Assembly (NCBI GenBank): GCA_002787155.1
Contig: PCVY01000065.1
Location: forward strand, 65,286 to 129,285
Reading direction: 5' to 3'
Origin: Candidatus Abzuiibacterium crystallinum
Lineage (GTDB): Bacteria; Omnitrophota; Omnitrophia; Omnitrophales; Abzuiibacteriaceae
Length of the DNA: 64,000 nt
Below the pieces are notes generated by a model. It ran no database searches, was not told the DNA's origin, and saw only the letters and a list, made by a program, of their open reading frames with translations. The translations under genes were made by a program, and so were the position numbers. How positions within the stretch are numbered: the first letter of the stretch is position 1; each line of letters starts with the position of its first letter. Shown piece by piece: positions 2,866-62,838 of this stretch.

Positions 2866-3237
2866 CTAGCGATCTGAAATAATATTTTCTTTAAGTGATA
2901 CTTCGGGACCTGCCGGCGCATTGACATAGGCGTCTGTGGCGCTCCAAATGTGGTTCAGAATGAAAATCCCAAGTCCCGTCCAAATTTGAGGGTATCCCGC
3001 AATGCCGCCTACCACCGCCGTGGTGACAATGGCGCCTGCTTCAATCACAATCATGGCGCCGGTCTTGACTTTGCCTCCCCGAGTCTCTAGCTCGCCGTTA
3101 ATGTATTGCCCAAGGCCCGGCACCAGCAAAGAGGCTGCGCCCCGCGTCAAGCTCTCCCCGCCCTTTGCCCACAGGACGGGCTGACTGATGAATAAGCAGG
3201 TCGTAACAATAAGCGCGATTGATAGGCTCTTTTTCAC
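2866..3237 (-). CDS. Small exported or membrane protein, Gly-rich
   Basis: 123-aa ORF with a signal peptide (MKKSLSIALIVTTCLFISQPVLWA) followed by a hydrophobic Gly-rich segment. Confidence 0.45.
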   Translation of the reverse strand: MKKSLSIALIVTTCLFISQPVLWAKGGESLTRGAASLLVPGLGQYINGELETRGGKVKTGAMIVIEAGAIVTTAVVGGIAGYPQIWTGLGIFILNHIWSATDAYVNAPAGPEVSLKENIISDR

Positions 3238-3341
3238 AAATTCTCCTTTTATCTGACATGTGAGCGGTGTGATATATTTTATATCGGCTGAATGGGATAA
3301 AAATAAATAACCGACATGAGCGAGAACTCAATTTATCTGAA

Positions 3342-3420
3342 GGGTCGGGGAGTTTCACCGATCCTTCACCCTATACCAGTCATGATCAAGCGGGGCCGGC
3401 ATAGGGTTTTATTGGCTCAT
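3342..3420. repeat. Dispersed ~80-nt element, family C, copy 1
   Basis: GGGTCGGGGAGTTTCACCGATCC...TCACCCTATACCAGTCATGATCAAGCGGGGCCGGCATAGGGTTTTATTGGCTCAT. The ~55-nt core is about 85% identical to 16976-17055. Confidence 0.6.
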
Positions 3421-3490
3421 TTATCTTTATTTTAAAGAAGCTTTCAGCTATACTAACTCCTTTATACAGTAATACTTACGCGGAAATCCA

Positions 3491-4003
3491 ATGCCTGAAA
3501 CAATTCTCTTTTATCTATTTGCTTCTGTCGCGCTCATCAGCGCTTTATACGTCATCTTCTCGAAAGAACCCACCTATGCCGTACTGTCTCTTGTGGTCAC
3601 CATGTTCTCGTTGGCTGCCCTTTACGTGATGCTGCATGCCTATTTTATTGCCATGATTCAAATCTTAATTTATGCAGGTGCTATTTTGGTTCTTTTTCTC
3701 TTTATTTTAATGCTGTTAGGAACCGAGGGCATCTTGCCGTCCGATCAAGCACGTTTAGGAAGAGGGTGGTGCTTCTTCGGCGTTTTATTGGTCAGTATTT
3801 TTACGGCAGAGCTCGCGATGGTTTTTCAGTCAACTCAAAATCTGAAAGATTGGCCATCTGAAATCTTAGGAACGGTTGAGAATATCGGCCGTTCCATTTT
3901 CTCCGAACATTTGCTGGCGTTTGAATTAATTTCTCTTATTCTTCTGATCGGTATCATCGGTGTCGTTAATCTCGCACACAAAAAAGAGGCGGATAACGCA
4001 TGA
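3491..4003 (+). CDS. nuoJ: NADH-quinone oxidoreductase subunit J
   Basis: 170-aa polytopic protein with NuoJ/ND6-like sequence. It is immediately followed by nuoK. Confidence 0.8.
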   Translation: MPETILFYLFASVALISALYVIFSKEPTYAVLSLVVTMFSLAALYVMLHAYFIAMIQILIYAGAILVLFLFILMLLGTEGILPSDQARLGRGWCFFGVLLVSIFTAELAMVFQSTQNLKDWPSEILGTVENIGRSIFSEHLLAFELISLILLIGIIGVVNLAHKKEADNA

Positions 4004-4305
4004 CATTGTCTTTGGAAAATTATCTAATCGTCAGCGGCATGCTATTCGCGATCGGTGCACTGGGCGTGATGACAAGACGCAATTTAATTATGATTCTTTT
4101 ATCCATTGAAATCATGCTGAACGCCGTTAATCTTTCTTTTGTGGCGTTCTCAAGTTACGGCGATAACGTCACGGGCCAAGTCAGCGCTCTTTTTGTCATT
4201 GCCATTGCCGCCTGTGAAGTCGCCATCGGTTTGGCTATTGCTGTTTTGGTATTTCAATCTCAACGAACCATCAGTACAGATGCTGTCAGCCGTTTAAAAG
4301 GATAA
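4000..4305 (+). CDS. nuoK: NADH-quinone oxidoreductase subunit K
   Basis: 101-aa ORF with 3 TM helices and a NuoK/ND4L signature (LSIEIMLNAVNLSFVAFS). Its start overlaps the nuoJ stop. Confidence 0.9.
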   Translation: MTLSLENYLIVSGMLFAIGALGVMTRRNLIMILLSIEIMLNAVNLSFVAFSSYGDNVTGQVSALFVIAIAACEVAIGLAIAVLVFQSQRTISTDAVSRLKG

Positions 4306-4309
4306 AACA

Positions 4310-6154
4310 TTGACTGAATGGCTCATTCTTTTTCTACCCTTCTTCGCTGCTGTCATCATTGCGCTCGGCACGCAGCGTTACGCTAAATTAAGCGCTGCGG
4401 TGGCGCTGACGAGCATCATCGCGTCTTTGATTTTAACCTGCCGGCTCGGTCTTCCTGAACTTTTTGAAGGTCATTTCTCAACCATTGAGAAAAGCCTCTC
4501 TTGGATCACCTTGCCGGGGCTTTCATTTGAGTTTGGTTTATTAATCAACACGCTATCCTTTGCCATGCTTTTAATTGTTCTGGTGGTTGCCCTGTGCATC
4601 TTTTACTATTCCGTCGAATACATGGAAGGTGAGAAGGGATTTGCCCGTTATTTTGCTTATTTAGCTTTTTTTACCTTCTCCATGCTGGGCATTGTGCTGT
4701 CTAATAATTTCCTCCAACTCTTCATCTTTTGGGAATTAGTGGGCGTCAGCTCTTATCTTTTAATCGGTTTCTGGTATGAAAAACATTCGGCGGCTGATGC
4801 CGGCAAAAAAGCTTTTCTCACCAACCGGATCGGTGATTACGGTTTTATTCTGGGCATCATCCTGCTGTGGACCTTGTCTTCAACATGGCAGGTGGAAACG
4901 CTGAACTTTTTACATCTGGCAAATTATTTGGCAGGTGCTCATTCTCATTCGCATGAAACGCTTCTCACCGTCATTTCTCTTTTGATTTTCTGCGGTGTGA
5001 TTGGTAAGTCAGCCCAGTTTCCTTTGCATGTGTGGCTGCCGGACGCCATGGAAGGCCCGACACCTGTGAGTGCTCTCATTCATGCTGCTACGATGGTAGC
5101 TGCCGGCGTTTATTTGCTAGCGCGCGTTTTCTTTTTGTTTCACCAGTCGCCTCTGGCGCTTGAAATGATCGCTTATTTGGGCGGCTTTACGGCCATTTTT
5201 GCCGCAACGCAGGCGTTGGTACAAACCGATCTGAAACGCGTCCTGGCTTACTCGACTTTAAGTCAATTAGGCTACATGGTTTTGGCCATCGGCTTGGGTT
5301 CGGCCGGCATTGCGATGTTTCATTTGACCACCCATGCCTTCTTTAAAGCCCTGCTTTTCCTAGGAGCCGGGTCCGTCATTCACATGACCCACGAGCAAGA
5401 CATGACTCGCTTGGGAAATTTAAGCCAAAGAATGCCAATCACAACCGGTTTATTTATCGTGGGCGCTTTAGCTTTAAGCGGTTTTTTTCCTTTCAGCGGG
5501 TTTTGGAGTAAGGACGAAATCTTAGTGTTGGCGTTACATCAAAATAGTTGGCTTTATGTCATTGCCATGTTGACTGCTTTTCTGACTGCCGTTTATATCA
5601 CCCGTGCCGTCATTTTAACGTTTTTTGGCTCATCTCAGGCAGAACACGGGCATGAACCGAAGCAGTGGATGTTAATTCCAATGATTTTGTTAGCTATTCT
5701 GTCGCTCGTAAGCGGTTTCCGTGTCCCCGAAATCATGCATCAATCCTTGGATCATCCGGTTCACTGGAACTGGCAGGTAGCCATCGTCAGCACACTGATG
5801 ACTTTGTGCGGGATCGCGCTTTCTGTTTGGCTTTATCAATTTCAACCGCAAATCGTGGTCAAAATACGAGGGAAATTTTCCGGAATTTATCAAATATTAA
5901 ACCGGCGCTACTACATGGATGATTTTTACGATTGGGTCATTCAAAAAATTCAAGCGCCCTTTTCACGAACTTGTTCGGCATTTGAATCTCACGTGGTCGT
6001 GCAAGGTTTGGTTAATTCAACTGCGCGATTGACCGGTGCATGCGGTCATTGGCTCAGGAAAATGCAAACGGGCCGTCTGCAAAACTATGTTACCGTCTTT
6101 TTTGCCGGTGTGGTTCTGATCATTTATTGCCTCATGGCACGGGTGATTTCATGA
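4310..6154 (+). CDS. nuoL: NADH-quinone oxidoreductase subunit L
   Basis: 614-aa antiporter-like subunit (Mrp/ND5 family motifs such as WLPDAMEGPTPVSALIHAATMV). Confidence 0.9.
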   Translation: MTEWLILFLPFFAAVIIALGTQRYAKLSAAVALTSIIASLILTCRLGLPELFEGHFSTIEKSLSWITLPGLSFEFGLLINTLSFAMLLIVLVVALCIFYYSVEYMEGEKGFARYFAYLAFFTFSMLGIVLSNNFLQLFIFWELVGVSSYLLIGFWYEKHSAADAGKKAFLTNRIGDYGFILGIILLWTLSSTWQVETLNFLHLANYLAGAHSHSHETLLTVISLLIFCGVIGKSAQFPLHVWLPDAMEGPTPVSALIHAATMVAAGVYLLARVFFLFHQSPLALEMIAYLGGFTAIFAATQALVQTDLKRVLAYSTLSQLGYMVLAIGLGSAGIAMFHLTTHAFFKALLFLGAGSVIHMTHEQDMTRLGNLSQRMPITTGLFIVGALALSGFFPFSGFWSKDEILVLALHQNSWLYVIAMLTAFLTAVYITRAVILTFFGSSQAEHGHEPKQWMLIPMILLAILSLVSGFRVPEIMHQSLDHPVHWNWQVAIVSTLMTLCGIALSVWLYQFQPQIVVKIRGKFSGIYQILNRRYYMDDFYDWVIQKIQAPFSRTCSAFESHVVVQGLVNSTARLTGACGHWLRKMQTGRLQNYVTVFFAGVVLIIYCLMARVIS

Positions 6155-7629
6155 GTTTGGGCGCCTATTTGATTCCGCTTTTAACGCTGTTGCCCTTAAG
6201 CGGTGCTGTGTTGGTTTTACTGCTGCCCGCTCAATGGACTAAATTAATCCGCGCGCTCGCTTGCACGATTACCTGGATAACTTTGATGATCAGTGCCGTC
6301 ATTTGTTTGCATTACGACACCGCAACGCCGGGCTTTCAATTGATAACTAAAATCGTTTGGCTGCCGTCTTTGGGCATTGCTTATCAAACCGGCGTGGACG
6401 GAATCAGTTGTGTGTTAATTCTTTTACATGCGATTTGTTCGTTAACGGCTGTTTTAGTGTCCGGATCAGTTGAAAACCGTGTCAAAGAATACTATGTTTT
6501 ATTGCTCTTCTTGATTGCCAGTATCTTTGGCGTGTTTACCGCGCTCGATTTATTCTTTCTATACGTTTTCTACGAAATGGCCGTGGTACCCCTCTACCCC
6601 ATGATTATTGTTTGGGGCAGTAAAAATAAAGAATACGGTGCCATGAAATTAACGCTCTACGTCACTTTAGGGGCCGTTTTAGCGCTGGTGGGTTTACTGA
6701 GCATCTATCACGCCACCGGGCTTAAAACATTTGATTTAATTGAAATCCAAAGCTTCCTAGCCGCGCATCCGCTGGATCAAACCTTCCAAACATGGGCTGC
6801 GCTGCTGCTCACAGTAGGTTTTGGCGTGGTCGCCTCGTTATGGCCTTTGCACAGCTGGTCGCCCATTGGATATGCTGCCGCACCGACGGCTGTCAGCATG
6901 CTGCACGCAGGTGTTCTGAAGAAAATCGGCATTTACGCCATCATCCGTCTCGTCTTAGGCTTGCTGCCCTTCGGCGCTTCTGTGTGGATGCCTTACGTTG
7001 CCATTTTGGCAGTGATCAATGTGCTTTACGGTGCTTGGGCAGCGATGGCACAAAATGATCTTAAATTTGTCATTGGGTTTGCCAGTGTCAGCCACATGGG
7101 TTATGCCTTGCTGGGCATCTCTGCTATGACGCCTTTGGCTGTTTCCGGTGTGGTCTTTTTTATGTTTGCCCACGGTGTCATGGCCGCTCTTTCTTTCGCT
7201 TTGATCGGCTTCATTTATCACCAAACACATACCAGAGACATTTCAGATTTGGGCGGCCTTATGAAGCCGCTGCCTTTTGTGGGTGCTTGTTTTGTGATGG
7301 CCGCTTTGGCTTCCAGCGGTTTACCCGGCTTTGCCAATTTTGTTTCTGAAATCATTATTTTCTTCGGCAGTTGGCAGGTGCGCCCTTGGCCGACTTTGTT
7401 TGCTATTTTTGGCATTGTCGTAACAGCAACGTATATGCTGCGGCTCGTCAAAAACGTATTCTTTGGACCAGTAAACCGCAAATGGAACAACTTGAAAGAC
7501 GCTGCTTCTTTCTTAGAGCGTTTGCCTTATGGGTTGTTGGTTCTTATTTTATTAATCTTTGGCTGTTGGCCGGCTTGGCTTTTAAACCTGATTCGTCCGA
7601 GTGTTGCATTACTGCCGCTCTTAAGATGA
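6151..7629 (+). CDS. nuoM: NADH-quinone oxidoreductase subunit M
   Basis: ND4-like antiporter subunit. The likely start is ATG at 6151 (MSLGAYLIPLL), giving an ATGA overlap with the nuoL stop. The track ORF has a spurious N-terminal extension. Confidence 0.85.
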   Translation: MSLGAYLIPLLTLLPLSGAVLVLLLPAQWTKLIRALACTITWITLMISAVICLHYDTATPGFQLITKIVWLPSLGIAYQTGVDGISCVLILLHAICSLTAVLVSGSVENRVKEYYVLLLFLIASIFGVFTALDLFFLYVFYEMAVVPLYPMIIVWGSKNKEYGAMKLTLYVTLGAVLALVGLLSIYHATGLKTFDLIEIQSFLAAHPLDQTFQTWAALLLTVGFGVVASLWPLHSWSPIGYAAAPTAVSMLHAGVLKKIGIYAIIRLVLGLLPFGASVWMPYVAILAVINVLYGAWAAMAQNDLKFVIGFASVSHMGYALLGISAMTPLAVSGVVFFMFAHGVMAALSFALIGFIYHQTHTRDISDLGGLMKPLPFVGACFVMAALASSGLPGFANFVSEIIIFFGSWQVRPWPTLFAIFGIVVTATYMLRLVKNVFFGPVNRKWNNLKDAASFLERLPYGLLVLILLIFGCWPAWLLNLIRPSVALLPLLR

Positions 7630-7661
7630 CGAGCTTTTTGATAAATAAGGGAGAATGATAC

Positions 7662-9101
7662 GTGACTATGCTGTCTTTGATATCGAGATCCGCTGAGACC
7701 GGACTGATTATTGTGGTGGTGGCTTTATTTGCGGCAAGGCTTACCCTGCCCCGTCTTAAGTCAGGGGTTGTGTCTAAGCTTGTGATCACTGTCTTCGCCC
7801 TGCTTTTCTTACTGAACATGACGCTCTGGGGAAGTAAAACGCTTTTACTGCAAGATGCGTTCCGGTTGGATCATTTTGCTTTATTTTTTAAAGGCTTTTT
7901 CCTCTTGGCGGGTATTTTCATCTTCATGATTGCCGGTCATTTCCAAGACACACTCGCTAAACGCATCTATGAGTTTTACAGCTTATTTACTTTAGCAACC
8001 TTAGGGGCTTGTTTTCTAGTATCTGCCAACAATTTTCTGGTGCTTTTCTTATCCATTGAGCTGATAACCTTCTCTTTGTATGTCCTCACCACTTATTGGC
8101 GAACGCAAATTACTTCAATTGAAGCCGGCACCAAATATCTTGTGGTAGGCGCTTTTTCATCAGCCATGATGCTTTTTGGCATTAGCTTTATTTATGGTAC
8201 AACCCAAACGATTAATTTTCATGACTGCCGTTCCGCTTTTACCGTTTTATCTGCACAGCCTTCATTCACTTTGTTGCACTTAGGTTTAATTTTAGTGCTG
8301 GCAGGAATTGGATTTAAAATTTCCGCTTTTCCGTTTCAACTATGGGCGCCCGATGTTTACCAAGGCGCGCCGACGCCGGTCACTGCTTTCTTGGCTGTCG
8401 TGTCTAAAAGCGCCGGTTTTGCGGCTCTTATGCGGCTCGTGTTACTTGCTACGGGCGGATGGAATGCCGTTTGGATTTTAATGTTGGCTTTAATTGCTGC
8501 CGCCACGCTTCTTTATGGCAATTTGGGAGCCATTCCGCAATTGGGCGGCAACATGAAACGTTTCTTGGCATTTTCCGGTATCGGGCATGCCGGCTATCTT
8601 TTAATGGCGATGATTTGTCAAAATGCGCAAGGTTACCAGGCTTTGATTTATTACTTGGTTGTTTATGCGATTGCCACTTTAACGATTTTCCTCGGCATTG
8701 TGTTGACCGACCCGTCTCAAAGCGACATGAAGCACAACATGTCTGATTTTCAAGGCTTATTGGCGCGTTCGCCTATGCTTGGTTTTTCTTTTTTTGTGGC
8801 CATTCTTTCTTTAGCGGGCGTGCCGCCGATGGCGGGGTTTTTTGGAAAATTTCTCGTGATTCAAGCAGTGATTGAGAAGGGAATGTGGCTGCTGGCTTTA
8901 ATTGGTGCCGTCACCATTGCTATTTCGCTCTATTATTACCTCAACGTTATTAAATTAATTTATGCCGATCAACCGAACGACACGTCTTCTATCAAGATCG
9001 GCTTTGGTTATCAATTAACGTTTATTTGTTTAAACCTTTCCCTCATTTTCCTCGGCGTCTTTCAAGCACCGCTCTTACATTTGATTGCGAAGACGATCTA
9101 A
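7662..9101 (+). CDS. nuoN: NADH-quinone oxidoreductase subunit N
   Basis: 479-aa ND2-like antiporter subunit. It is the last gene of the nuoJ-N block. Confidence 0.85.
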   Translation: MTMLSLISRSAETGLIIVVVALFAARLTLPRLKSGVVSKLVITVFALLFLLNMTLWGSKTLLLQDAFRLDHFALFFKGFFLLAGIFIFMIAGHFQDTLAKRIYEFYSLFTLATLGACFLVSANNFLVLFLSIELITFSLYVLTTYWRTQITSIEAGTKYLVVGAFSSAMMLFGISFIYGTTQTINFHDCRSAFTVLSAQPSFTLLHLGLILVLAGIGFKISAFPFQLWAPDVYQGAPTPVTAFLAVVSKSAGFAALMRLVLLATGGWNAVWILMLALIAAATLLYGNLGAIPQLGGNMKRFLAFSGIGHAGYLLMAMICQNAQGYQALIYYLVVYAIATLTIFLGIVLTDPSQSDMKHNMSDFQGLLARSPMLGFSFFVAILSLAGVPPMAGFFGKFLVIQAVIEKGMWLLALIGAVTIAISLYYYLNVIKLIYADQPNDTSSIKIGFGYQLTFICLNLSLIFLGVFQAPLLHLIAKTI

Positions 9102-9106
9102 AACAT

Positions 9107-9135
9107 GGGGTCAGACCCGGGAGGGTCTGACCCCT
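9107..9135. repeat. Family A palindromic element (GGGGTCAGACCC / GGGTCTGACCCC hairpin), copy 1
   Basis: GGGGTCAGACCCgggaGGGTCTGACCCC: a 12-bp stem with a 4-nt loop, directly after the nuoN stop. Confidence 0.8.
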
Positions 9136-11972: not shown

Positions 11973-12083
11973 TCACGTCCGCTTTCGTCCTTTATCGCGA
12001 CCAACGATATGTTAGGAGAAAGCCCGGCGTGAGTCAACCAAATAACCGATTAAGCATCTGGACATTCAGTCCCGTATGCTCAT

Positions 12084-12113
12084 CCGCCAGAGGACGGATT
12101 CGTCCTCTGGCGG
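12084..12113. repeat. Family B hairpin element, copy 1
   Basis: CCGCCAGAGGACggattcGTCCTCTGGCGG: a perfect 12-bp stem with a 6-nt loop. A second copy at 62805-62838 carries a compensatory change. Confidence 0.7.
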
Positions 12114-12134
12114 AGAGAGTTTTACTTCATACAC

Positions 12135-12166
12135 CTGGGAGTCAGACCCTCCTGGGTCTGACTCCA
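12135..12166. repeat. Family A palindromic element, copy 2 (variant GGGAGTCAGACCC / GGGTCTGACTCC)
   Basis: cctGGGAGTCAGACCCtcctGGGTCTGACTCCacg, about 10 nt downstream of the rplS stop. Confidence 0.8.
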
Positions 12167-12176
12167 CGTCCGTTAA

Positions 12177-15017: not shown

Positions 15018-15869
15018 TCAGGACCGAATGGCTGTCACCACTCGGTCAATTCCCGCTAAATCTTTTGTGATATGAATGTGGGAAAAATAATTTTCCGTTA
15101 ACCATGTGTTGACCGCAGGCGCCTGCCCGATGCCTAATTCAAAAGCAATCAAACCGCCGGGATGCAGGACTTCTTTTGCCTGTTTGATCATAGAACGATA
15201 AGCATCCAAGCCGTCTTGGCCGCCATCCAAGGCTTCGCGCGGCTCATAAGTAATTTCCGGCTGCAATGCTTTTAAATCCTCTGCCGACAAATAAGGCGGA
15301 TTAGATACCAAACAATCGAAAGAACCGCTGATGCCGTTCCAATACCCCGTTCGAATAAATTGAATTTGCGATGCAACTCGATTGATGCGTGCGTTCTTCA
15401 TCGCTACTTGAACAGCTTTTTCGGAAATATCGGTTGCAACCAAGGACGCGTTTGGCAAGCGCCGCGCTAAACTCACGGCCACACAGCCGCTGCCTGTTCC
15501 GACTTCCAAAATTTGAAGGGACGGGACTTTTTTACCGGCCAGTTCCGTTAAAATGCTTTCTACCAAATGCTCGGTTTCAGGCCGCGGGATAAAGACGCCC
15601 TGTTCAACCTCAAAATAGAGGTCATCGAAGGGCACGCGCCCGGTCAGGTACTGAACCGGATAATGCGTACTTCTTTTTTGCAATAAATCAAAGAACAACG
15701 CTTCTGCTTTTTGAGAAACAGTAGACCCAAAGTCAGCTAATAAAGCAGACCTTGGCTTTTGAAGCGAGAAAGACAAAAGCAGTTCGGATGATTGCGCAGC
15801 ATCTTCAATGGCGCGTGTTTTAAGGAATTCAGTCCCTTTTTTAAGGAGATCTGCGACCTGCGCACTCAT
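15018..15869 (-). CDS. prmC: Release factor glutamine N5-methyltransferase (HemK/PrmC)
   Basis: NPPY motif (VSNPPYL) and SAM-binding motif (LEVGTGSG). Its start overlaps the prfA stop, in the conserved prfA-prmC pairing. Confidence 0.85.
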   Translation of the reverse strand: MSAQVADLLKKGTEFLKTRAIEDAAQSSELLLSFSLQKPRSALLADFGSTVSQKAEALFFDLLQKRSTHYPVQYLTGRVPFDDLYFEVEQGVFIPRPETEHLVESILTELAGKKVPSLQILEVGTGSGCVAVSLARRLPNASLVATDISEKAVQVAMKNARINRVASQIQFIRTGYWNGISGSFDCLVSNPPYLSAEDLKALQPEITYEPREALDGGQDGLDAYRSMIKQAKEVLHPGGLIAFELGIGQAPAVNTWLTENYFSHIHITKDLAGIDRVVTAIRS

Positions 15870-16951
15870 TTCGCCTCCGCCTGCTCCTGAAGCTTTCTGG
15901 TACGCTCATCCTTCCTTAAAACATCGATTAAATCATCTAAATGGCCGTTCAAAATATCATCCAATGCATGCAAAGTCAAACCAATTCGATGGTCAGTTAC
16001 CCGGTTATCCGGGAAGTTATAAGTCCTAATTTTACCTGATCTGTCACCGCTGCCTACTTGGCTTTTCCGAGCCTCTGAGATCTTCTTCTCCTGCTCTTCC
16101 TGCTTCATTTTAAGGAGGCGCGCCCTTAAAATACGCATTCCTTTTGCCTTATTTTTAAGCTGGGAACGCTCATCCTGACACCTGACGGTAAGACCCGTCG
16201 GTAAATGGACAATCTGCACGGCTGAATCGGTTGTATTGACACCTTGTCCGCCCGGCCCGCTTGCCCGGCAAACCTCGATCCTGAGCTCCTCAGGCTTAAT
16301 GTTTACTTCAACCTCATCCGGCTCCTGCATAATAGCGACAGTGGCAGCTGAGGTATGAATCCGCCCGGAAGCTTCCGTCTCGGGTACCCGCTGAACGCGG
16401 TGAATACCGCTCTCGTACTTGAAAGCAGAATAAACCTTCTCCCCGCTTATCCCAAACACGATTTCTTTAAAACCGCCTTTGCCCGCTGTGCTCGTACTCA
16501 TGACATCGACGTTAAATTTATGATTAGCGGCAAACCGCGTGTACATCCGAAAAAGATCTCTCGAAAAAAGAGAGGCTTCTTCTCCGCCCGTCCCGGCCCT
16601 GATTTCAATGATCACATTACGGATATCATCATCACCGTCATCACCAAGCAACATTTCTTCGATTTCTGTTTCAAGCGACTTAAGCTTTGCGCTGAGATCA
16701 GCCTTTTCATCCTCATACAACTTTCGCATATCATGATCATTGGTGCCGGCAGCCAGCAAATGTTCCGTTTCTTTCAGATGCTTTTCAGCGGACTGATAAG
16801 CTTGATAACGGCCGAGAACCGGTTCGATTCTGGATAATTCGCGCCCTAACTTTTGCATTTGCTCGGGATTTTGAGAGACCTCGGGCTTTGCCATTTCGGC
16901 ATGTATCTCTTCTACGCGTTTTTTAATTGCTTCAAGCCGTTCTACCAGCAT
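15866..16951 (-). CDS. prfA: Peptide chain release factor 1
   Basis: GGQ motif (SGPGGQGVNTTDSAV) and PxT-type class-I release-factor architecture. 361 aa. Confidence 0.9.
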   Translation of the reverse strand: MLVERLEAIKKRVEEIHAEMAKPEVSQNPEQMQKLGRELSRIEPVLGRYQAYQSAEKHLKETEHLLAAGTNDHDMRKLYEDEKADLSAKLKSLETEIEEMLLGDDGDDDIRNVIIEIRAGTGGEEASLFSRDLFRMYTRFAANHKFNVDVMSTSTAGKGGFKEIVFGISGEKVYSAFKYESGIHRVQRVPETEASGRIHTSAATVAIMQEPDEVEVNIKPEELRIEVCRASGPGGQGVNTTDSAVQIVHLPTGLTVRCQDERSQLKNKAKGMRILRARLLKMKQEEQEKKISEARKSQVGSGDRSGKIRTYNFPDNRVTDHRIGLTLHALDDILNGHLDDLIDVLRKDERTRKLQEQAEAK

Positions 16952-16975
16952 AGGATGCGAGCTTTAAATTATTGA

Positions 16976-17055
16976 GGGGTCGTGGAGTTTTTCCCCAACC
17001 CCTCACCCTATACCAGTCTTGATCAAACGAGGCTGGTATAGCGTTTCATTGGTTA
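16976..17055. repeat. Dispersed ~80-nt element, family C, copy 2
   Basis: GGGGTCGTGGAGTTTTTCCCCAACCCCTCACCCTATACCAGTCTTGATCAAACGAGGCTGGTATAGCGTTTCATTGGTTAT, which contains the hairpin CTATACCAG...CTGGTATAG. It lies between rpmE and prfA. Confidence 0.6.
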
Positions 17056-17373
17056 TTTTTTAATGACCTTCGCTTTTTCTTCTTTTTTAGCGCGCACTTT
17101 GACGGGCTTTTTCTTACCCTTCGATACCACATTGTCTTTGTACTTCTTCTTGAACTTTTCAATGCGGCCTGCGGTATCAATGAGTTTTTGCTGTCCCGTG
17201 AAAAATGGGTGTGATGCCGACGAAATCTCGAGCCGGATCAACGGATAAACTTGGCCGTCTTCCCATTTAATGGTTTCGTTCGATTTGGCCGTCGAGCGTG
17301 TCAGAATGGCAAAATCAGCGCCGGTGTCTTTAAACACGACAAATCGATAATCGGGATGAATGTCTTTTTTCAT
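17053..17373 (-). CDS. rpmE: 50S ribosomal protein L31 with a Lys-rich C-terminal extension
   Basis: MKKDIHPDY... is an L31 N-terminus. The ~30-aa K-rich tail is an extension not found in all lineages. Confidence 0.85.
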
Positions 17374-17470
17374 ATGTTTTTCCTTTCTTTTCGGGGACGG
17401 TTCCTATCTAACTTCTTATCAACAAATAGGTTATAAGGAACCGTCCCTAAGCATTTAAATTACTTGAGCC

Positions 17471-17498
17471 ATCGGGGAGTTTCCCCGACCTCTCAATT
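17471..17498. repeat. Family C-related hairpin, partial copy 3
   Basis: aTCGGGGAgttTCCCCGAcctctcaatt: a perfect 7-bp hairpin matching the 5' module of family C, at the rho stop codon. Confidence 0.5.
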
Positions 17499-18885
17499 AC
17501 TTATCGTTTTTATTGAGCGACATCAAGAACTCTGCGTTCGATTTTGTCTTGGACAAACGTTCGAGCAAAAGTTCCATCGCTTCGGTCGGATTGAGTTCGT
17601 TCAACACGCGTCTTAGCATCCACACCCGGTTGAGTTCATCCGGATGAAGCAGTAGATCCTCTTTCCGCGTATTGGATTTCTTCACATCAATCGCCGGATA
17701 AATGCGTTTTTGGAAGAGATTGCGGTCCAAAGACAATTCCATGTTGCCCGTTCCTTTAAACTCTTCAAAAATGACTTCGTCCATGCGTGAACCGGTATCA
17801 ACGAGAGCAGTCGCCACAATGGTTAAACTGCCGCCTTCGTCAATGTTACGGGCTGCGCCAAAAAAGCGTTTCGGTTTATGCAGCGCGCTTGAATCTACGC
17901 CGCCCGTTAAGATTTTGCCTGAATGCGGGGCTACCGTGTTATACGCACGCGCCAGACGTGTAATGCTGTCCAGCAGAATGACGACATCGCGGCGATGTTC
18001 CACCAGTCGTTTCGCTTTCTCAAGCACCATTTCGGCCACTTGCACATGCCGTTCGGCCGGTTCGTCAAAAGTAGAAGCGATAACTTCACCTTTGACGGAA
18101 CGCGACATATCCGTCACTTCTTCCGGACGCTCATCGATCAAAAGAATGATCATATAAACTTCCGGATTGTTTTTGGTGATGCTGTTGGCAATCTTTTGAA
18201 GCAAGATCGTTTTACCGCTGTAAGGCGGTGCAACCACCAAGCCGCGCTGGCCTTTACCGACTGGTGATAAAAGATCCATGACACGCATGGAAAGTTCTGT
18301 CGGTTCTGTTTCCAGAATAATCCGCTCCTGCGGATAAAGCGGCGTTAAATTATCGAAAGGAATCTTGTCACGAACCGCCTCTGGTGATTCGTAATTGACC
18401 GCTTCCACTTTGAGCAGGGCAAAATACCGCTCGCCTTCTTTCGGCGGGCGAATTTGGCCGCTCACGGTGTCTCCTGTTCTCAAATTGAATTTACGAATTT
18501 GAGACGGCGACACATAAATATCATCCGGTGAGGGTAAATAATTGTAATTGGGTGAGCGGAGGAACCCAAATCCATCCTGTAAAATTTCAAGCACCCCTTC
18601 CCCAAACATCAAACCTGATTGTTCGGCTTGGGCTTGAAGGATCTTAAAAATGAGATCCTGTTTTTTAACACCAATCACTTGCTCAATTTTGAATTTATGA
18701 GCCAGTTCGTGGAGCTCCGCTACCTTCATCTTGCGGAGACCGGCCACATTGAGCAGACCTTCTCTGTTTTTGAGCTGATCCGCTTCCGGCTGAACCGGGG
18801 CAGGCTTAAACGGCCTGTTGTTGTTTTGATCACGGTCCTTGCGGTGATTGATTCTAGGTTGACTTTCTTTTGTTTCTTTTGGCAT
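17497..18885 (-). CDS. rho: Transcription termination factor Rho with an N-terminal insertion
   Basis: 462 aa with an RNA-binding domain and a RecA-like ATPase. Walker A/B motifs are present. There is a basic N-terminal extension before the Rho N-domain. Confidence 0.9.
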
Positions 18886-27260: not shown

Positions 27261-28463
27261 TTAAGCAAACAATAACTCTCTCATTCTGGTGCGGATGTGA
27301 GCAGAGCTTGCTTTCCCTTGTTCTGTTGAACGGCCGATCCAGCCGCCGCCTAAGACGATATCACCGTCGTAAAGAACGCATGCTTGACCGGGTGTAATGG
27401 CGTCTTGCGGTTCACGAAAGTTCACCTGCACATGATCATTCGAAAGAAATGAAAGCGTGGCTTCAGCTTTTTGATGCCGCGAACGAATTTTAGCTTGAAC
27501 GTGGTTAGGATTAATTTGTTCCAACGGGACAAACCAATTGATTCTTTCAACTTCACACCGTTGACTATAAACATCCTCTTTGGGACCGACAATGACCAGA
27601 TTTTCTTCGGGCAGGATATCAATCACATAAAGTGCGTGCGGATGCGCAATGTTAAGTCCTTTGCGTTGACCAATCGTAAAATGATAATAGCCTGGGTGCG
27701 TTCCTAACACGCTGCCTTCTTTGTCTCTGACTTGACCGACGTCCTCAGAAGCAGCGGCAGAAACCGCGCCCTGTTTTTCAAGAAAAGCACCGTAATCATT
27801 GCTGGGGATAAAACAAATTTCCTGCGAGTCGGGTTTATTGGCAACGCACAAGCCGATCCGGCCGGCAATTTCGCGAATCGTTTGTTTGGTATATTGACCA
27901 ACCGGCAGTTCGAGATGACTTAAGACATCTTGTGATAGCGGGAATAAAACATATGATTGGTCTTTGGCCGCATCTAACCCCTGGGAAACGACAAAATGTT
28001 GTTTGTGTTTGTCATATTTCAATTGCGCGTAATGCCCTGTTGCAATTTTGTCGTATCCAAGTTCGCGGGCTCTTTGTAAAAACAATTTAAATTTGATGTG
28101 CTCGTTACAAGCAATGCAAGGATTAGGCGTGTTTCCCTTCATATATTCATCGGTAAAGTAATCGACCACGTGGGTTTTGAATTCTTTCTCAAAATTAAAT
28201 ACGTGATAAGGAATCTCGAGGCGTTCTGCTACATCGCGCGCATCTTCAACACCAATTACCCCGCAGCACGATTTGGTATTTTTTTCTTCACAGTCGCCGC
28301 TTGCCCACGTGCGAATGGTAGCGCCGCCCACTTCCCAGCCTGCTTGCTGCAGTAAGTAAGCTGCGACTGACGAATCAACGCCTCCGCTCATGGCAACCAA
28401 TATTTTCTTTTTCATAATAACAATCCTGAATCCTGGGGTCAGGTTAGGGTCTGACCCCATCAA
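27261..28463 (-). CDS. mnmA: tRNA-specific 2-thiouridylase MnmA
   Basis: PP-loop ILVAMSGGVDSSVAAYLL. The likely true start is the internal MKKKIL (near 28415). The track ORF extends into the family A repeat, translating it as GSDPNLTP. Confidence 0.85.
   Translation of the reverse strand: MMGSDPNLTPGFRIVIMKKKILVAMSGGVDSSVAAYLLQQAGWEVGGATIRTWASGDCEEKNTKSCCGVIGVEDARDVAERLEIPYHVFNFEKEFKTHVVDYFTDEYMKGNTPNPCIACNEHIKFKLFLQRARELGYDKIATGHYAQLKYDKHKQHFVVSQGLDAAKDQSYVLFPLSQDVLSHLELPVGQYTKQTIREIAGRIGLCVANKPDSQEICFIPSNDYGAFLEKQGAVSAAASEDVGQVRDKEGSVLGTHPGYYHFTIGQRKGLNIAHPHALYVIDILPEENLVIVGPKEDVYSQRCEVERINWFVPLEQINPNHVQAKIRSRHQKAEATLSFLSNDHVQVNFREPQDAITPGQACVLYDGDIVLGGGWIGRSTEQGKASSAHIRTRMRELLFA
28435..28458. 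repeat. Family A palindromic element, copy 3
   Basis: cctGGGGTCAGgttaGGGTCTGACCCC, between bioD and mnmA. Confidence 0.8.
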
Positions 28464-30766: not shown

Positions 30767-31945
30767 TTGATTTGCCGTGCGCTTCCTTTTATATATAGAC
30801 GCATGAAAACAATCAAATCGTTTCCCCAAGCGGCGTTTCAGAAGAAGCTGCTCAAATGGTATCAAACCTCAAAGCGCCCACTGCCATGGCGGCAGAAGAA
30901 AAGTGCTTATGGAACCCTGGTCTCAGAAATCATGCTCCAGCAAACGCAAATCAAAACCGTGATTCCTTATTACGGGCGCTGGCTTAAAACTTTTCCGACC
31001 ATTCAAAAACTGGCAAAAGCACCGCTTAGGAAAGTGCTTAAATTATGGGAAGGCCTGGGTTATTACTCGCGCGCTCGCAATCTTCACCGAACGGCTCAAA
31101 CAATTGACCGCCGATTCCAAGGACAAATTCCATCCGATCCGGAAATCCTGATGATGCTCCCCGGCATCGGACGCTACACAGCCGGCGCCATCGCAAGCAT
31201 TGCCTATGATCAACCGGTGCCTTTGGTAGATGGGAATGTCGCACGCGTATTTTCACGCATTTTTTTAATCAAACAAGATATTTTGAAACCGGAAACGCAG
31301 AAACTGCTTTACACGTATGCTTCCTCACTGGTTTCTTCAAAACAAGCAGGCAATTTCAATCAAGCTTTGATGGAATTAGGTGCTTTAATCTGTACACCTG
31401 CATTACCGGAGTGCTCGCTCTGCCCGGTTCGTTCCCTCTGCTGCGCTTATCAAAACGGCGTGCAAGAAACACTTCCTGTTCGATCAAAAGGTCCTCAAAA
31501 AAAGAAGGTGTTTTTGCAAGCAGCACTTCTGACACACCAAAACAAAATATTAGTTCAGGAACGTCCGGCAAAAGGTATTTGGGGTGGTTTGTGGGAGTTG
31601 CCTAACAGGCGCGTGAATGGCGAGCATGAACCCAGAAAATTTAAACGTTATTTAGAAAAACAATATCGTGTTTCTTTGGCGCCGACTTTTAAACGTTTAT
31701 CTTTAATGAAACGTGAACTCACGCATTTGTCCGTTGTGATTGAACCTTTTCAATTTCTGGTTAAAAAAACTGCTTTAAAACAAAGCGAAAAGCTGCGTTG
31801 GATATTGAAGCCTCATTTAAAATCCATTTCTTGTCCGGTCCCTTATCAGCAAATCCTTCAAAATCATTTTGAATCTAAAGTCTTGGGGTCAGACCCTGAC
31901 CTGACCCCAAGCAAAGGGTCTGACCCCGCGCAACCAAATGGATAA
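30767..31945 (+). CDS. mutY: A/G-specific adenine DNA glycosylase MutY
   Basis: HhH-GPD fold, 4Fe-4S loop CTPALPECSLCPVRSLC and a NUDIX-like C-domain. The last ~20 codons run through two family A repeats (…GSDPDLTPSKGSDPAQPNG). Confidence 0.85.
   Translation: MICRALPFIYRRMKTIKSFPQAAFQKKLLKWYQTSKRPLPWRQKKSAYGTLVSEIMLQQTQIKTVIPYYGRWLKTFPTIQKLAKAPLRKVLKLWEGLGYYSRARNLHRTAQTIDRRFQGQIPSDPEILMMLPGIGRYTAGAIASIAYDQPVPLVDGNVARVFSRIFLIKQDILKPETQKLLYTYASSLVSSKQAGNFNQALMELGALICTPALPECSLCPVRSLCCAYQNGVQETLPVRSKGPQKKKVFLQAALLTHQNKILVQERPAKGIWGGLWELPNRRVNGEHEPRKFKRYLEKQYRVSLAPTFKRLSLMKRELTHLSVVIEPFQFLVKKTALKQSEKLRWILKPHLKSISCPVPYQQILQNHFESKVLGSDPDLTPSKGSDPAQPNG
31883..31928. repeat. Family A palindromic elements, copy 4 (a full hairpin plus a half-site)
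   Basis: CTTGGGGTCAGaccctgaCTGACCCCAAG hairpin, then GGGTCTGACCCCgcgc. Located inside the 3' end of mutY and overlapping the ygfZ-like start. Confidence 0.8.
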
Positions 31946-40950: not shown

Positions 40951-41054
40951 AAAAAGACCATGGAATAAAGATGAGGGACGGTTTTTTTCAGGAACCGTCC
41001 CTATTTTTCTTTTACACCATTAAGTGATGACTTATGTTCTGGTGCACTTGTCAT

Positions 41055-43179: not shown

Positions 43180-43209
43180 GGGGGCCAGACCCTAACCTGA
43201 CCCTCAGGT
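43180..43209. repeat. Family A palindromic element, copy 6 (variant)
   Basis: GGGGGCCAGACCCTAACCTGACCCTCAGG. Its reverse complement contains GGGTCAGGTTAGGGTCTG, identical to the core of copy 3. It lies downstream of cysK. Confidence 0.7.
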
Positions 43210-44896: not shown

Positions 44897-44904
44897 CTTT
44901 TTTT

Positions 44905-44963
44905 AAGGGGACAACTCCCTTTTTCACTTTTCCATCTTTTTCAGAAAAAGGGAGTTGTCCCCT
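44905..44963. promoter_or_regulatory. 20-bp perfect inverted repeat AAGGGGACAACTCCCTTTTT (19-nt spacer) AAAAAGGGAGTTGTCCCCTT
   Basis: Seen directly in sequence. It lies between the stop of the small basic ORF and the UDG start codon, on the same strand, with T-rich flanks and a T-rich loop. Confidence 0.55.
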
Positions 44964-44975
44964 TACCCTTCACGA

Positions 44976-61867: not shown

Positions 61868-61970
61868 ATTAAAACGTATAGTATCCTGATCGGGTTTTAA
61901 GCGCCATTCAATATTTTACTCATGAAACCTTTCTTTTAAATGAATACTTTGTACCTATTTAGCCTACTCA

Positions 61971-62006
61971 AAAAAAGTGCCAAGCAAAGTTTGCCTGGCA
62001 CTTTTA
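61971..62006 (-). terminator. Rho-independent terminator for the 62033-62716 gene
   Basis: On the minus strand: AGTGCCAGGCAAActTTGCTTGGCACT followed by TTTTTTT. Confidence 0.65.
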
Positions 62007-62032
62007 AAAAACCATCTTAAATAATGAACGAT

Positions 62033-62716
62033 TTATTCGACTAAGGCAGACCAAGCCCAAGTGCCGTTCATCGGATACCCCGGATTGTCCGGAGGATTCG
62101 GAACTAAACAAGTATATACGCTTCCGAAACCATAAATTTCCCGGCTCCACCAAAACCAAAAACCTTTCCCGAGACCCGCTAAAACATTGCCTTCGCGCGC
62201 GCCTTTTAAGGTTTGCCCAGGCAATTCGGCAATGCCTAAAAGCCCGTCTGAGAATCCGTGAAGCAGCTTGCGTCCGATAGGCTTCACACCTTCAGCCAAG
62301 GAAGGTTTGAAAAGATCATATTGTTCGCCCATTTGCCAAGGATATTCGGCATCAAACGGAATACCAACGCCTTCATTATCAGCCGGGTTTGCCATCCAAA
62401 AGCCAACAAGTTCCAATCCGCCCCAACCCACACGACCAGCAGCATGACCTATCCCGCGAAAGAACCCTAGGATAGTGCCAACGGTTTTTGACCCTACGTT
62501 ATTTTTAATCAAACCGAATCCTTTGTCATATCCCTTGTAAATTTGCATGGGAATTTCGACAACTCCTGTCACCATGTTGACACCGCCACGCACGGCTTTA
62601 TGTACCATTCCTGACGGAATGTTGTCGGTGGCAGCATAGAGAGGCGGTGCAACGAGCAGTAGAGCAAGAATTGCTCCGATCAATTTTTGCATAAATCCTC
62701 CTTTGGCATCTAACAC
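62033..62716 (-). CDS. Secreted Gly/Trp-rich protein, unknown
   Basis: Signal peptide from the internal MQKLIGAILALLLVAPPLYAA. No known motifs. Confidence 0.5.
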   Translation of the reverse strand: MLDAKGGFMQKLIGAILALLLVAPPLYAATDNIPSGMVHKAVRGGVNMVTGVVEIPMQIYKGYDKGFGLIKNNVGSKTVGTILGFFRGIGHAAGRVGWGGLELVGFWMANPADNEGVGIPFDAEYPWQMGEQYDLFKPSLAEGVKPIGRKLLHGFSDGLLGIAELPGQTLKGAREGNVLAGLGKGFWFWWSREIYGFGSVYTCLVPNPPDNPGYPMNGTWAWSALVE

Positions 62717-62804: not shown

Positions 62805-62838
62805 CCGTCAGCCAGAGGACTGATTCGTCCTCTGACGG
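62805..62838. repeat. Family B hairpin element, copy 2
   Basis: CCGTCAG(cc)AGAGGACtgattcGTCCTCTGACGG. Relative to copy 1, the C-G pair is replaced by T-A at the same stem position, a compensatory change. The downstream flank (…AAAGTTAACTCCACG) also resembles the copy-1 flank (…GAGAGTTTTACTTCATACACC). Confidence 0.65.

What the first reader, a model, noticed from the sequence alone, without database searches (positions are those of the whole stretch)
3342..3420. Family C: ~80-nt structured element present in 3 copies (3342-3420, 16976-17055, partial 17471-17498)
There is a conserved ~55-nt core (TCACCCTATACCAGTCnTGATCAAnCGnGGCnGGnATAGnGTTTnATTGG) at about 85% identity, preceded by a GGGGTCG…GAGTTT…CCCC hairpin module. 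Copy 3 carries only the 5' hairpin. Copies 2 and 3 flank rpmE inside the rho-rpmE-prfA operon. Copy 1 lies in the divergent promoter region upstream of nuoJ. It is too long and too conserved to be a simple terminator, so it is a candidate small RNA, an RNA regulatory element, or a miniature non-autonomous mobile element.
Basis: seen in the sequence. Interest (0 to 1): 0.55.

Follow-up and report, generated by a model that had tools for sequence, protein, structure and literature searches.

The report
Small hairpin insertion element, MITE-like
A roughly 80-base, two-hairpin sequence has been inserted at two or three places in this uncultivated Omnitrophota genome, with short duplicated flanks and empty sites in relatives, so it is most likely a small non-coding mobile element of an ordinary kind and not a regulatory RNA.

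Summary
Two full copies (3339-3418 and 16974-17052/55) align over 88 nt at 81% identity (core 50 nt at 86%). A 29-bp hairpin (17466-17494) resembles the element's smaller hairpin. Each full copy folds into two adjacent hairpins. The window is contig PFGO01000092.1 of an Omnitrophica MAG (GCA_002781965.1).

New evidence points to insertion:
- Copy 1 is flanked by a perfect 8-bp direct repeat (ATTTATCT), and copy 3 by another (AATTACTT). The chance is about 0.001 per element.
- Copy 2 has only a 5-bp flanking repeat.
- Relatives with the same gene order have uninterrupted sites. The nearest one has 5 nt between rpmE and prfA, against 101 nt here.
- Two relatives carry the copy-1 target sequence unbroken.

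No Rfam family matches. A covariance model finds no further copy in about 81 kb of this contig or in 1.3 Mb of related loci. No transposase gene lies in the window.

Verdict: a lineage-specific, non-autonomous, MITE-like insertion family with 8-bp target duplications in A/T-rich sites. Two sites lie at TAA stop codons.

Not settled: genome-wide copy number, the mobilising enzyme and any RNA-level role. The full element has no terminal inverted repeats. Interest is low to moderate: a new member of a known kind.

The parts
3339..3418 (-). Copy 1, full element of 80 bp. Read on the minus strand it is GAGCCAAT-AAAAC, then hairpin A, then hairpin B. It lies between divergent nuoJ and the 123-aa gene.
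   Evidence: 99.7 bits. It is 100% identical in five assemblies of the same strain.
3368..3407 (-). Copy 1 hairpin A: 12-bp stem and a 16-nt loop containing TTGATCA.
   Evidence: Two G-U pairs form only on the minus strand.
3339..3367 (-). Copy 1 hairpin B: GAAGGATCGGTG / CCCCGACCCTTC, a 29-nt palindrome.
3331..3338 (.). Left target-site duplication of copy 1: ATTTATCT.
   Evidence: Read and confirmed by script.
3419..3426 (.). Right target-site duplication of copy 1: ATTTATCT.
   Evidence: Removing the element and one repeat restores a sequence that is contiguous in relatives L112 and L114.
16974..17052 (-). Copy 2, full element of 79 bp (82 bp if TAA/TTA 17053-17055 is counted). It fills the rpmE-prfA spacer, starting at the rpmE stop codon and ending 22 nt before the prfA ATG.
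   Evidence: 107 bits. Identical in six assemblies.
17005..17044 (-). Copy 2 hairpin A.
16974..17004 (-). Copy 2 hairpin B.
   Evidence: It carries one compensatory change (A-U to G-C) and one U-G pair relative to copy 1.
16969..16973 (.). Left 5-bp flanking repeat of copy 2 (TTATT). A possible decayed duplication.
   Evidence: Read. No exact 8-mer repeat is present.
17053..17057 (.). Right 5-bp flanking repeat of copy 2 (TTATT). It overlaps the rpmE stop codon.
17466..17494 (.). Copy 3: the 29-bp palindrome GAGCCATCGGGGAGTTTCCCCGACCTCTC, located 2 nt after the rho stop codon. Either a solo hairpin B or an internal-deletion derivative of the full element.
17458..17465 (.). Left target-site duplication of copy 3: AATTACTT.
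17495..17502 (.). Right target-site duplication of copy 3: AATTACTT. It contains the rho stop codon (TAA on the minus strand, 17497-17499).

Best explanation
Family C is a small, non-coding, non-autonomous insertion element (MITE-like) specific to this Omnitrophota lineage.

Structure. The full unit is about 80 bp. Read on the minus strand it has a short 5' end (GAGCCAAT AAAAC), then hairpin A (12-bp stem, 16-nt loop with TTGATCA), then hairpin B (a 29-nt near-perfect palindrome).

Insertion. It entered A/T-rich sites and duplicated 8 bp of target, which implies a staggered cut by an enzyme supplied in trans (inferred). That enzyme is most simply a DDE-type transposase encoded elsewhere in the genome. 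Two of the three sites lie at the TAA stop codons of rho and rpmE. The duplication regenerates the stop codon, so the genes stay intact.

The three copies.
- Copy 1 landed in a conserved block of the spacer between divergent nuoJ and the 123-aa gene.
- Copy 2 fills the formerly very short rpmE-prfA spacer.
- Copy 3 is a 29-bp derivative that keeps both element ends. It is either a solo hairpin B or an in-situ internal deletion.

What is shown and what is not. Shown: repeat homology, the hairpins, the 8-bp duplications, and empty sites in relatives. Inferred: the enzyme, the copy-and-spread history, and target preference. Once transcribed within the rho-rpmE-prfA mRNA, copies 2 and 3 will form stable intercistronic hairpins (-31 to -38 kcal/mol for the full unit). 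These could protect upstream mRNA or weaken translational coupling. That is a side effect I cannot demonstrate, not the reason the element exists.
For: 1. Dispersed copies. Two 79-80 bp copies sit 13.6 kb apart in unrelated contexts at 81-86% identity.

2. Target-site duplications. Perfect 8-bp direct repeats directly flank copy 1 (ATTTATCT, 3331-3338 / 3419-3426) and copy 3 (AATTACTT, 17458-17465 / 17495-17502). Only 0.11-0.12% of pseudo-elements placed across the window have such a repeat within +-3 nt of both ends. Copy 3 is the only one of 371 8-mer repeat pairs in the window whose interior also has terminal inverted repeats of at least 9/12. Shuffles give a mean of 0.17 such pairs.

3. 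Empty sites at the rho-rpmE-prfA locus. All relatives keep this gene order.
- In the nearest relative, L032 (PrfA 74% identical), RpmE ends ...SIKK* like the window's ...VIKK*, and prfA starts 5 nt later, against 101 nt here.
- L034 and L035 have 10-11 nt between rho and rpmE, against 123 nt here.

4. Empty sites at the copy-1 locus.
- Relatives L112 and L114 keep the divergent nuoJ / 123-aa gene layout.
- The window's left flank AAAATAAAGATAAAT and right flank TTGAGTTCT are contiguous in them (AAATAAAGATAAAATCTGATTTCT; AAAATAAAGAGGGAATTTGAAGTT).
- Deleting the element plus one repeat copy improves the alignment scores: 27 against 20.5 for L112, and 36.5 against 32.5 for L114.

5. No known RNA family matches at gathering or permissive thresholds.

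6. Relatives carry other, unrelated palindromic inserts in the same spacers. These spacers therefore tolerate such insertions.
Against: - The full 80-bp unit has no terminal inverted repeats. Only GA(G)...(C)TC is shared between its ends. A classical MITE has them.
- Only two full copies and one fragment were seen in about 81 kb of this contig. Genome-wide copy number is unknown.
- No transposase or parent IS with matching ends was found among about 38 window ORFs scanned.
- Copy 2 lacks an 8-bp duplication. It has 5 bp, and reaching 8 bp requires assuming a 6-bp deletion.
- No copy was found in any other genome or metagenome searched, so there is no independent evidence of spread.
- The relatives used as empty sites are distant (59-74% protein identity). 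They show absence, not a recent presence/absence polymorphism. All assemblies of the strain itself are identical.
Confidence: 0.68

Rival explanations
1. It is a cis-acting structured RNA: an intercistronic stabiliser, processing site or attenuator. On this reading it is kept because its two hairpins act in the rho-rpmE-prfA mRNA and in the leader of the 123-aa gene. An insertion origin would be irrelevant or wrong.
For: - Both full copies have the same orientation relative to a downstream minus-strand gene. Copy 2 ends 22 nt before prfA and copy 1 ends 101 nt before the 123-aa gene.
- The folds are strong, with z-scores down to -6.5.
- All three one-sided stem changes give G-U pairs on the minus strand only, and there is one compensatory pair.
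- Relative L033 has an unrelated hairpin plus T-run in the same rpmE-prfA spacer.
Against: - The element is not conserved at orthologous sites in any relative.
- prfA and the 123-aa secreted or lipoprotein-like gene have no evident functional link.
- Substitution rates are similar in stems (9/48) and unpaired columns (8/34), counted.
- With n=2 the shuffle control is uninformative (254/500).
- Three G-U pairs on one strand has a chance of about 0.25.
- This reading does not explain the 8-bp flanking duplications.
- No Rfam family matches.
Confidence: 0.15
2. It is an independent small RNA gene present in two paralogous copies. It would be transcribed on the plus strand and end at hairpin A followed by T-rich sequence.
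For: - On the plus strand, hairpin A is followed by TTTTATTGG in copy 1 and by CGTTTCATTGGTTATTTTTT in copy 2.
- The scan flags copy 2 as terminator-like on the plus strand.
- Copy 1 lies in a spacer where it could have its own promoter.
Against: - No promoter-like site lies upstream of either copy on the plus strand. The only hit, at 3253-3280, is at chance level.
- The T-run after copy 2 lies outside the element and consists of rpmE's lysine codons.
- On the plus strand the stem changes become A-C mismatches (logic).
- There are no homologues in Rfam or in relatives.
- The flanking duplications are unexplained.
Confidence: 0.05
3. It is not mobile. On this reading an 80-bp segment was copied once by illegitimate recombination or repair, copy 3 is an unrelated terminator-like hairpin, and the flanking repeats are coincidence in A/T-rich DNA.
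For: - Only two full copies are known.
- Copy 3's sequence match alone is weak, E 0.03-0.07.
- 8-mer direct repeat pairs are common in the window overall: 371 with spacing of 20-200 nt.
Against: - Exact 8-mer repeats at both ends occur for about 0.1% of placements. Two of three elements having them gives roughly 4e-6.
- Both repeats are exactly 8 bp and abut the homology or palindrome boundaries.
- The reconstructed pre-insertion site matches relatives.
Confidence: 0.1

Closest known systems
Bacterial MITEs (for example Correia/CREE of Neisseria, RUP of Streptococcus pneumoniae, IMU), as defined in Delihas 2011 (PMC3184786)
   Same: - Small (below 200 bp), with no coding capacity.
- Dispersed in intergenic DNA.
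- Flanked by direct-repeat target duplications.
- Folds into stable stem-loops as RNA.
- Absent from orthologous sites of relatives.
   Different: - The ends of the full unit share no terminal inverted repeat beyond GA...TC.
- Only 2-3 copies have been seen so far.
- No cognate IS or transposase has been identified.
- The target duplication is 8 bp, against TA for Correia and RUP and 5 bp for IMU. The Correia and RUP values are from my own knowledge; the IMU value is from PMC3184786.
REP / BIME / REPIN elements mobilised by RAYT (TnpA-REP) transposases
   Same: - Hairpin B alone (29 bp, a G+C-rich imperfect palindrome) is in the REP size range of 21-65 bp (PMC3184786).
- It sits just after stop codons inside an operon, as REPs often do.
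- A possible mRNA-stabilising effect.
   Different: - REPs are not flanked by target duplications (own knowledge). Here two elements have perfect 8-bp duplications.
- No RAYT gene lies in the window.
- There is no evidence of hundreds of copies.
- The unit is a composite of two different hairpins.
Composite or modular pneumococcal repeats (BOX, SPRITE) and Rickettsia palindromic elements (RPE)
   Same: - About 100-nt structured repeats built from hairpin modules.
- Some copies carry only a subset of modules.
- Insertions are tolerated next to or within essential genes.
   Different: - No sequence similarity.
- RPEs insert in frame into coding regions, whereas these copies stay just outside the ORFs.
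- SPRITE ends in a terminator-like T-run, which this element lacks in the sense orientation.
IS200/IS605-derived palindrome-associated elements (PATEs)
   Same: - No terminal inverted repeats.
- Subterminal hairpins.
   Different: From my own knowledge of the family, IS200/IS605 transposition makes no target duplication and inserts 3' of a fixed 4-5 nt motif. Here there are 8-bp duplications of different sequence.

Membership tests
MITE (miniature inverted-repeat transposable element) | Small (generally below 200-400 bp) and lacking a transposase gene. | tested here: met
   79-80 bp and 29 bp. The only ORF across an element (3098-3358, minus strand; it overlaps 20 nt of copy 1) has no Pfam match.
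MITE (miniature inverted-repeat transposable element) | Flanked by target-site duplications (direct repeats). | tested here: met
   Perfect 8-bp repeats flank copies 1 and 3, and a 5-bp repeat flanks copy 2. The null frequency is about 0.0012 per element.
MITE (miniature inverted-repeat transposable element) | Terminal inverted repeats at the two ends of the element. | tested here: not met
   The full-unit ends GAAGGGTCGG... and ...TTATTGGCTC share only GA/TC when compared as inverted repeats (sequence). The 29-bp copy 3 does have 9/12 inverted termini, and hairpin B is itself a 12-bp inverted repeat. For this reason I call the element MITE-like and not a MITE.
MITE (miniature inverted-repeat transposable element) | Multiple dispersed copies in the genome. 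| tested here: inconclusive
   Two full copies and one partial copy were found in about 81 kb of one contig. The rest of the MAG could not be searched. The genome and metagenome pattern scans found no related copy.
MITE (miniature inverted-repeat transposable element) | Presence/absence at orthologous sites (empty sites). | tested here: met
   L032 is empty at rpmE-prfA. L034 and L035 are empty at rho-rpmE. L112 and L114 are empty at nuoJ / 123-aa gene. These relatives are distant (59-74% protein identity).
MITE (miniature inverted-repeat transposable element) | A cognate autonomous IS with the same ends that supplies the transposase. | not testable with these tools
   No transposase domain was found in about 38 window ORFs.
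REP/REPIN | Short imperfect palindromes without target duplication, associated with a RAYT gene and present in high copy number. | tested here: not met
   8-bp duplications are present. No RAYT or Y1 transposase lies in the window. Copy number is unknown.
Any Rfam RNA family | Score at or above the family's gathering threshold. | tested here: not met
   There are 0 hits at gathering threshold for the whole window. The best permissive hits score 12-21 bits against thresholds of 35-72.
Intrinsic (Rho-independent) terminator | G+C-rich hairpin followed directly by a T/U run on the transcribed strand. | tested here: not met
   No terminator-like site lies on the minus (sense) strand at either locus. 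One plus-strand call at 17008-17041 has a tail that is not a clean T-run.

The most novel reading that the evidence does not exclude
The element may be a mobile unit that has hairpins at its ends, lacks terminal inverted repeats, and still makes fixed 8-bp target duplications. That combination is not typical of classical MITEs, which have inverted repeats, or of IS200/IS605 and REP-type hairpin elements, which make no duplication. It would point to an unusual transposition chemistry or end-recognition mode in Omnitrophota. Its apparent preference for TAA-containing A/T-rich sites would place stable RNA hairpins right after stop codons of essential genes (rho, rpmE), where they may have been co-opted as intercistronic RNA elements.
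Probability: 0.12. Interest if true: 0.5.

Novelty: new member of a known kind. Interest (0 to 1): 0.28.

Why it matters
If correct, this is a first described small mobile repeat family in an Omnitrophota genome, a candidate phylum known only from metagenomes. A full-text search for Omnitrophica together with MITE found no paper.

It shows that the tightly packed rho-rpmE-prfA operon tolerates hairpin insertions placed exactly at stop codons, with the duplicated target restoring the stop.

In practice, annotators should not read this element as a riboswitch or sRNA. The set of different hairpin inserts in these spacers across relatives could serve as lineage markers.

It does not open a long-standing question. 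The only unusual points are the missing terminal inverted repeats and the 29-bp derivative with intact duplications.

Tried and rejected
- Rfam at gathering threshold on the whole window, and at permissive threshold on both loci: nothing credible.
- Exact-pattern scan of GTDB genomes with CCCTATACCAGTCNTGATCAA: 0 hits.
- Metagenome scan with TGATCANGACYGGYATAGGG: 20 hits. All are chance matches with no similarity outside the pattern. The window's own loci were not in that collection.
- Viral contig scan: 0 hits. Plasmid and phage blastn: no match.
- Looked for strain-level presence/absence: all 11 other assemblies of the strain are 100% identical at the three sites.
- Looked for more copies with blastn-short and a covariance model in the window, in 7 kb to the left and 9.5 kb to the right of it, and in 1.3 Mb of related loci: none. 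A weak model hit at 61951-62042 is an ordinary terminator hairpin.
- Looked for a transposase among window ORFs: none.
- Checked whether the GGGGTCAGACCC hairpin family has similar flanking duplications: none seen.
- Considered that RpmE's C-terminal extension was created by the insertion. Rejected, because L032 has the homologous extension with no element.
- Considered that copy 1 is a duplicated rpmE-prfA junction that includes the prfA start. The aligned ATG opens only a 12-codon ORF, and similarity outside the element is at background level.
- Promoter assignments around copy 1 remain uncertain. The conserved block GCCGATA lies 10 nt from the start codon in relatives but 47 nt from it here. 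I therefore do not claim where the 123-aa gene's promoter is.
- One look-up failed because the ORF start was wrong.

Full report
**Observation**

The two full copies are real.
- The 24-nt core TCACCCTATACCAGTCNTGATCAA occurs at 3366 and 17003 and nowhere else, against 0 expected in 100 shuffles.
- The repeat finder reports a 70-nt ungapped pair at 80% identity (D2).
- Gapped blastn extends this to 88 nt at 80.7%, E about 1e-16, with a 50-nt core at 86%.
- A trimmed alignment (A2) places the homologous unit at 3339-3418 and 16974-17055.

Read on the minus strand the unit has three parts:
- a short 5' end, GAGCCAAT AAAAC;
- hairpin A, with a 12-bp stem and a 16-nt loop containing TTGATCA;
- hairpin B, a 29-31 nt near-palindrome.

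Both strands fold well, with z-scores from -2.8 to -6.5.

The third 'copy' is only a 29-bp palindrome at 17466-17494. It resembles hairpin B weakly: 17 nt at 94%, E 0.03-0.07, and 21.8 bits with the covariance model.

**Where the window comes from**

The RpmE protein of the window is encoded, with an identical sequence, on NCBI contig PFGO01000092.1 of MAG GCA_002781965.1. The source names it Candidatus Omnitrophica bacterium CG11_big_fil_rev_8_21_14_0_20. It also occurs in several ENA, JGI and Logan assemblies. All of those assemblies are 100% identical to the window at the three sites, so they give no comparative signal.

**Gene context**
- rho (17497-18885), rpmE (17053-17373), prfA (15866-16951), prmC and aroA are all on the minus strand.
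- Copy 3 starts 2 nt after the rho stop codon.
- Copy 2 starts at the rpmE stop codon and ends 22 nt before the prfA ATG.
- Copy 1 lies in the 253-nt spacer between nuoJ (3491, +) and a 123-aa gene (2866-3237, -). That gene has a good Shine-Dalgarno sequence and belongs to an Omnitrophota-specific family.

**Known RNA families**

None matches. There are 0 gathering-level hits in the window. Relaxed thresholds give only 12-21 bit noise.

**Target-site duplications**

Reading the flanks shows perfect 8-bp direct repeats directly against the element boundaries:
- ATTTATCT at 3331-3338 and 3419-3426 around copy 1;
- AATTACTT at 17458-17465 and 17495-17502 around copy 3.

The right repeat of copy 3 contains the rho stop codon.

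Two controls bear on chance.
- A script that slides pseudo-elements of 80 or 29 nt across the window finds an exact 8-mer repeat within +-3 nt of both ends in only 0.12% and 0.11% of placements. Two of three elements having one by chance is therefore of order 4e-6.
- Of 371 8-mer repeat pairs in the window with 20-200 nt spacing, copy 3 is the only one whose interior also has inverted termini of at least 9/12. Shuffles give a mean of 0.17.

Copy 2 has only a 5-bp flanking repeat: TTATT at 16969-16973 and 17053-17057. An 8-bp duplication (AAATTATT) can be recovered only by assuming a 6-bp deletion at the rpmE-proximal end. I do not count that as evidence.

**Empty sites in relatives**

A protein-anchored scan of GTDB genomes with PrfA returned the nearest relatives:
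- L032, Omnitrophota NC_groundwater_1334, 74% identity;
- L033, 62%;
- L034, 60%;
- L035, 59%.

All keep the order rho-rpmE-prfA.

At the rpmE-prfA spacer:
- In L032, RpmE carries the same Lys-rich C-terminal extension and ends ...SIKK*, against ...VIKK* in the window. The prfA ATG follows after only 5 nt, against 101 nt here.
- The other relatives have spacers of 45-74 nt with unrelated sequence.

At the rho-rpmE spacer:
- The spacer is 10-11 nt in L034 and L035, against 123 nt here.

At the copy-1 site:
- Homologues of the 123-aa protein led to L112 (72% identical, spacer 73 nt) and L114 (70% identical, spacer 201 nt). Both have the same divergent nuoJ arrangement.
- In the window, minus strand, the sequence reads AAAATAAAGATAAAT [element] AGATAAATTGAGTTCT.
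- L114 reads GAAATAAAGATAAAATCTGATTTCT without interruption. L112 reads AAAATAAAGAGGGAATTTGAAGTT without interruption.
- Removing the element and one repeat copy gives a sequence that aligns across the junction with both relatives. The scores improve over the uninterrupted window sequence: 27 against 20.5 for L112, and 36.5 against 32.5 for L114.

Together with the duplications, this is the classic signature of an insertion.

**Search for more copies and for the enzyme**

None of these searches found a further copy:
- blastn-short and a covariance model built on copies 1 and 2 (R1), run with filters off on the window;
- the 7 kb of the contig to the left of the window and the 9.5 kb to the right;
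- 1.32 Mb of related loci;
- genome, metagenome and viral pattern scans, plus plasmid and phage blastn.

The MAG itself is evidently not in the searchable nucleotide collections, so the genome-wide copy number could not be determined. About 38 ORFs of the window were scanned against Pfam. All those with matches are housekeeping genes and none is a transposase, integrase or reverse transcriptase.

**Structure and strand**

On alignment A2 the two-hairpin structure pairs 91.7% of cells, against 33-46% when the partners are slid. With two sequences the shuffle control is uninformative (254/500).
- There is one compensatory change, A-U to G-C in hairpin B.
- Three one-sided changes give G-U or U-G pairs on the minus strand and would be A-C mismatches on the plus strand. 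This mildly favours the minus (operon-sense) strand if RNA structure matters. Three of three on one strand has a chance of about 0.25.
- Substitutions are about as frequent in stems (9/48) as in unpaired columns (8/34). That fits slow neutral decay better than strong structural selection.

**Ends of the element**

The full unit has no terminal inverted repeat. Its ends share only GA...TC. Hairpin B is itself an inverted repeat.

Copy 3 read on the plus strand begins GAGCCAT, like the GAGCCAAT end of the full unit read on the minus strand. It ends ...CCCCGACCTCTC, like the other end of that unit.
- A model in which copy 3 is the full element with an internal 51-nt deletion gives 23/29 identities at exactly the observed length.
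- Treating it as a solo hairpin B in either orientation gives 20-21/29 (my count).
- I cannot tell whether the deletion preceded or followed insertion.

**Mechanism**

The best-supported account is that Family C is a non-autonomous, MITE-like insertion element. An enzyme encoded elsewhere mobilises it and makes 8-bp staggered cuts in A/T-rich targets. On the minus strand the targets read AGATAAAT, AAGTAATT and AATAATTT, and all contain TAA.

Two insertions landed on TAA stop codons, and the duplication preserved the stop. As parts of the rho-rpmE-prfA transcript, copies 2 and 3 must form stable hairpins between cistrons. In sense orientation neither is followed by a T-run, so they are not classical terminators. 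A REP-like effect on mRNA stability is possible but untested.

Copy 1 lies inside a block that is conserved among relatives in the divergent spacer. A conserved TATACT box sits on the nuoJ side, outside the element. Whether copy 1 is transcribed is unknown.

**Comparison with known kinds**

By the definition in Delihas 2011 (PMC3184786), MITEs are small, lack a transposase, have terminal inverted repeats, are flanked by target duplications and fold into stem-loops as RNA.
- This family meets size, lack of coding, duplications, folding and empty sites.
- It fails the inverted-repeat criterion for the full unit.
- Copy number and the parent IS are untested.

I therefore call it MITE-like and not a MITE.

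It is not a REP/REPIN, because duplications are present and no RAYT gene was seen. It is not IS200/IS605-like, because that family makes no duplication. It is not a terminator, and it is not any Rfam family.

**Verdict**

This is a real repeat, best explained as an ordinary kind of small mobile insertion in an unusual organism. It is a new member of a known kind and of low to moderate interest. The two features worth a follow-up are the absence of terminal inverted repeats despite fixed 8-bp duplications, and the 29-bp derivative.

Noticed in passing
window 9103-9134, 12138-12169, 28434-28459, 31884-31909 (plus a half-site at about 31916-31927), 43181-43203: A separate family of short G+C-rich palindromes, GGGGTCAGACCC...GGGTCTGACCCC, sits in at least five intergenic spots, often just after gene ends. 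I saw no flanking direct repeats.
   Followed up: partly
window 12083-12114 and 62808-62839: Two copies (91% identical) of a 32-nt perfect or near-perfect palindrome, TCCGCCAGAGGACGGATTCGTCCTCTGGCGGA. This is another small hairpin repeat family.
   Followed up: no
window 17394-17449 and 40975-41005: Hairpins that share the stem AGGGACGGTTCC / GGAACCGTCCCT. One is a 56-nt stem-loop just upstream of the rpmE Shine-Dalgarno sequence. The other lies between the H+-PPase and TrkH genes and is followed by a T-run on the plus strand. They could be a leader structure and a terminator, or a further repeat family.
   Followed up: partly
window 17053-17373 (rpmE) compared with L032: L31 here is 106 aa with a Lys-rich C-terminal extension of about 25 aa. 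It lacks the CxxC...CxxC zinc motif. The syntenic L31 of the nearest relative has the same extension but keeps the cysteines. Most homologues are 80-85 aa.
   Followed up: partly
L032 about 297-371 (rho-rpmE spacer), L035 about 2522-2575 (rpmE-prfA spacer), L113 about 3480-3530: Related Omnitrophota carry hairpin inserts that begin GTCATTGCGA(G/A)C... in the same spacers. This looks like a widespread repeat family unrelated to Family C.
   Followed up: no
window 44904-44965: A perfect 22-bp inverted repeat (TAAGGGGACAACTCCCTTTTTC / GAAAAAGGGAGTTGTCCCCTTA) with an 18-nt spacer lies between the uracil-DNA glycosylase gene and a T2SSE ATPase gene.
   Followed up: no
L114 about 7842-7874: A relative has its own perfect 16-bp-stem palindrome (ATTGTGACAGTCACAA TT TGTGACTGTCACAAT) about 30 nt from the site equivalent to the copy-1 insertion point.
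   Followed up: no
window 3491-9101 and 1-1088: The nuoJ-K-L and two further antiporter-like subunit genes (five genes) stand alone, with no nuoA-I genes upstream. They are divergent from a PDZ-protein operon and lie next to the F-type ATP synthase operon.
   Followed up: no
window 32947-37128 (minus strand): A 1393-aa ORF with no Pfam match at E<=1e-5.
   Followed up: no
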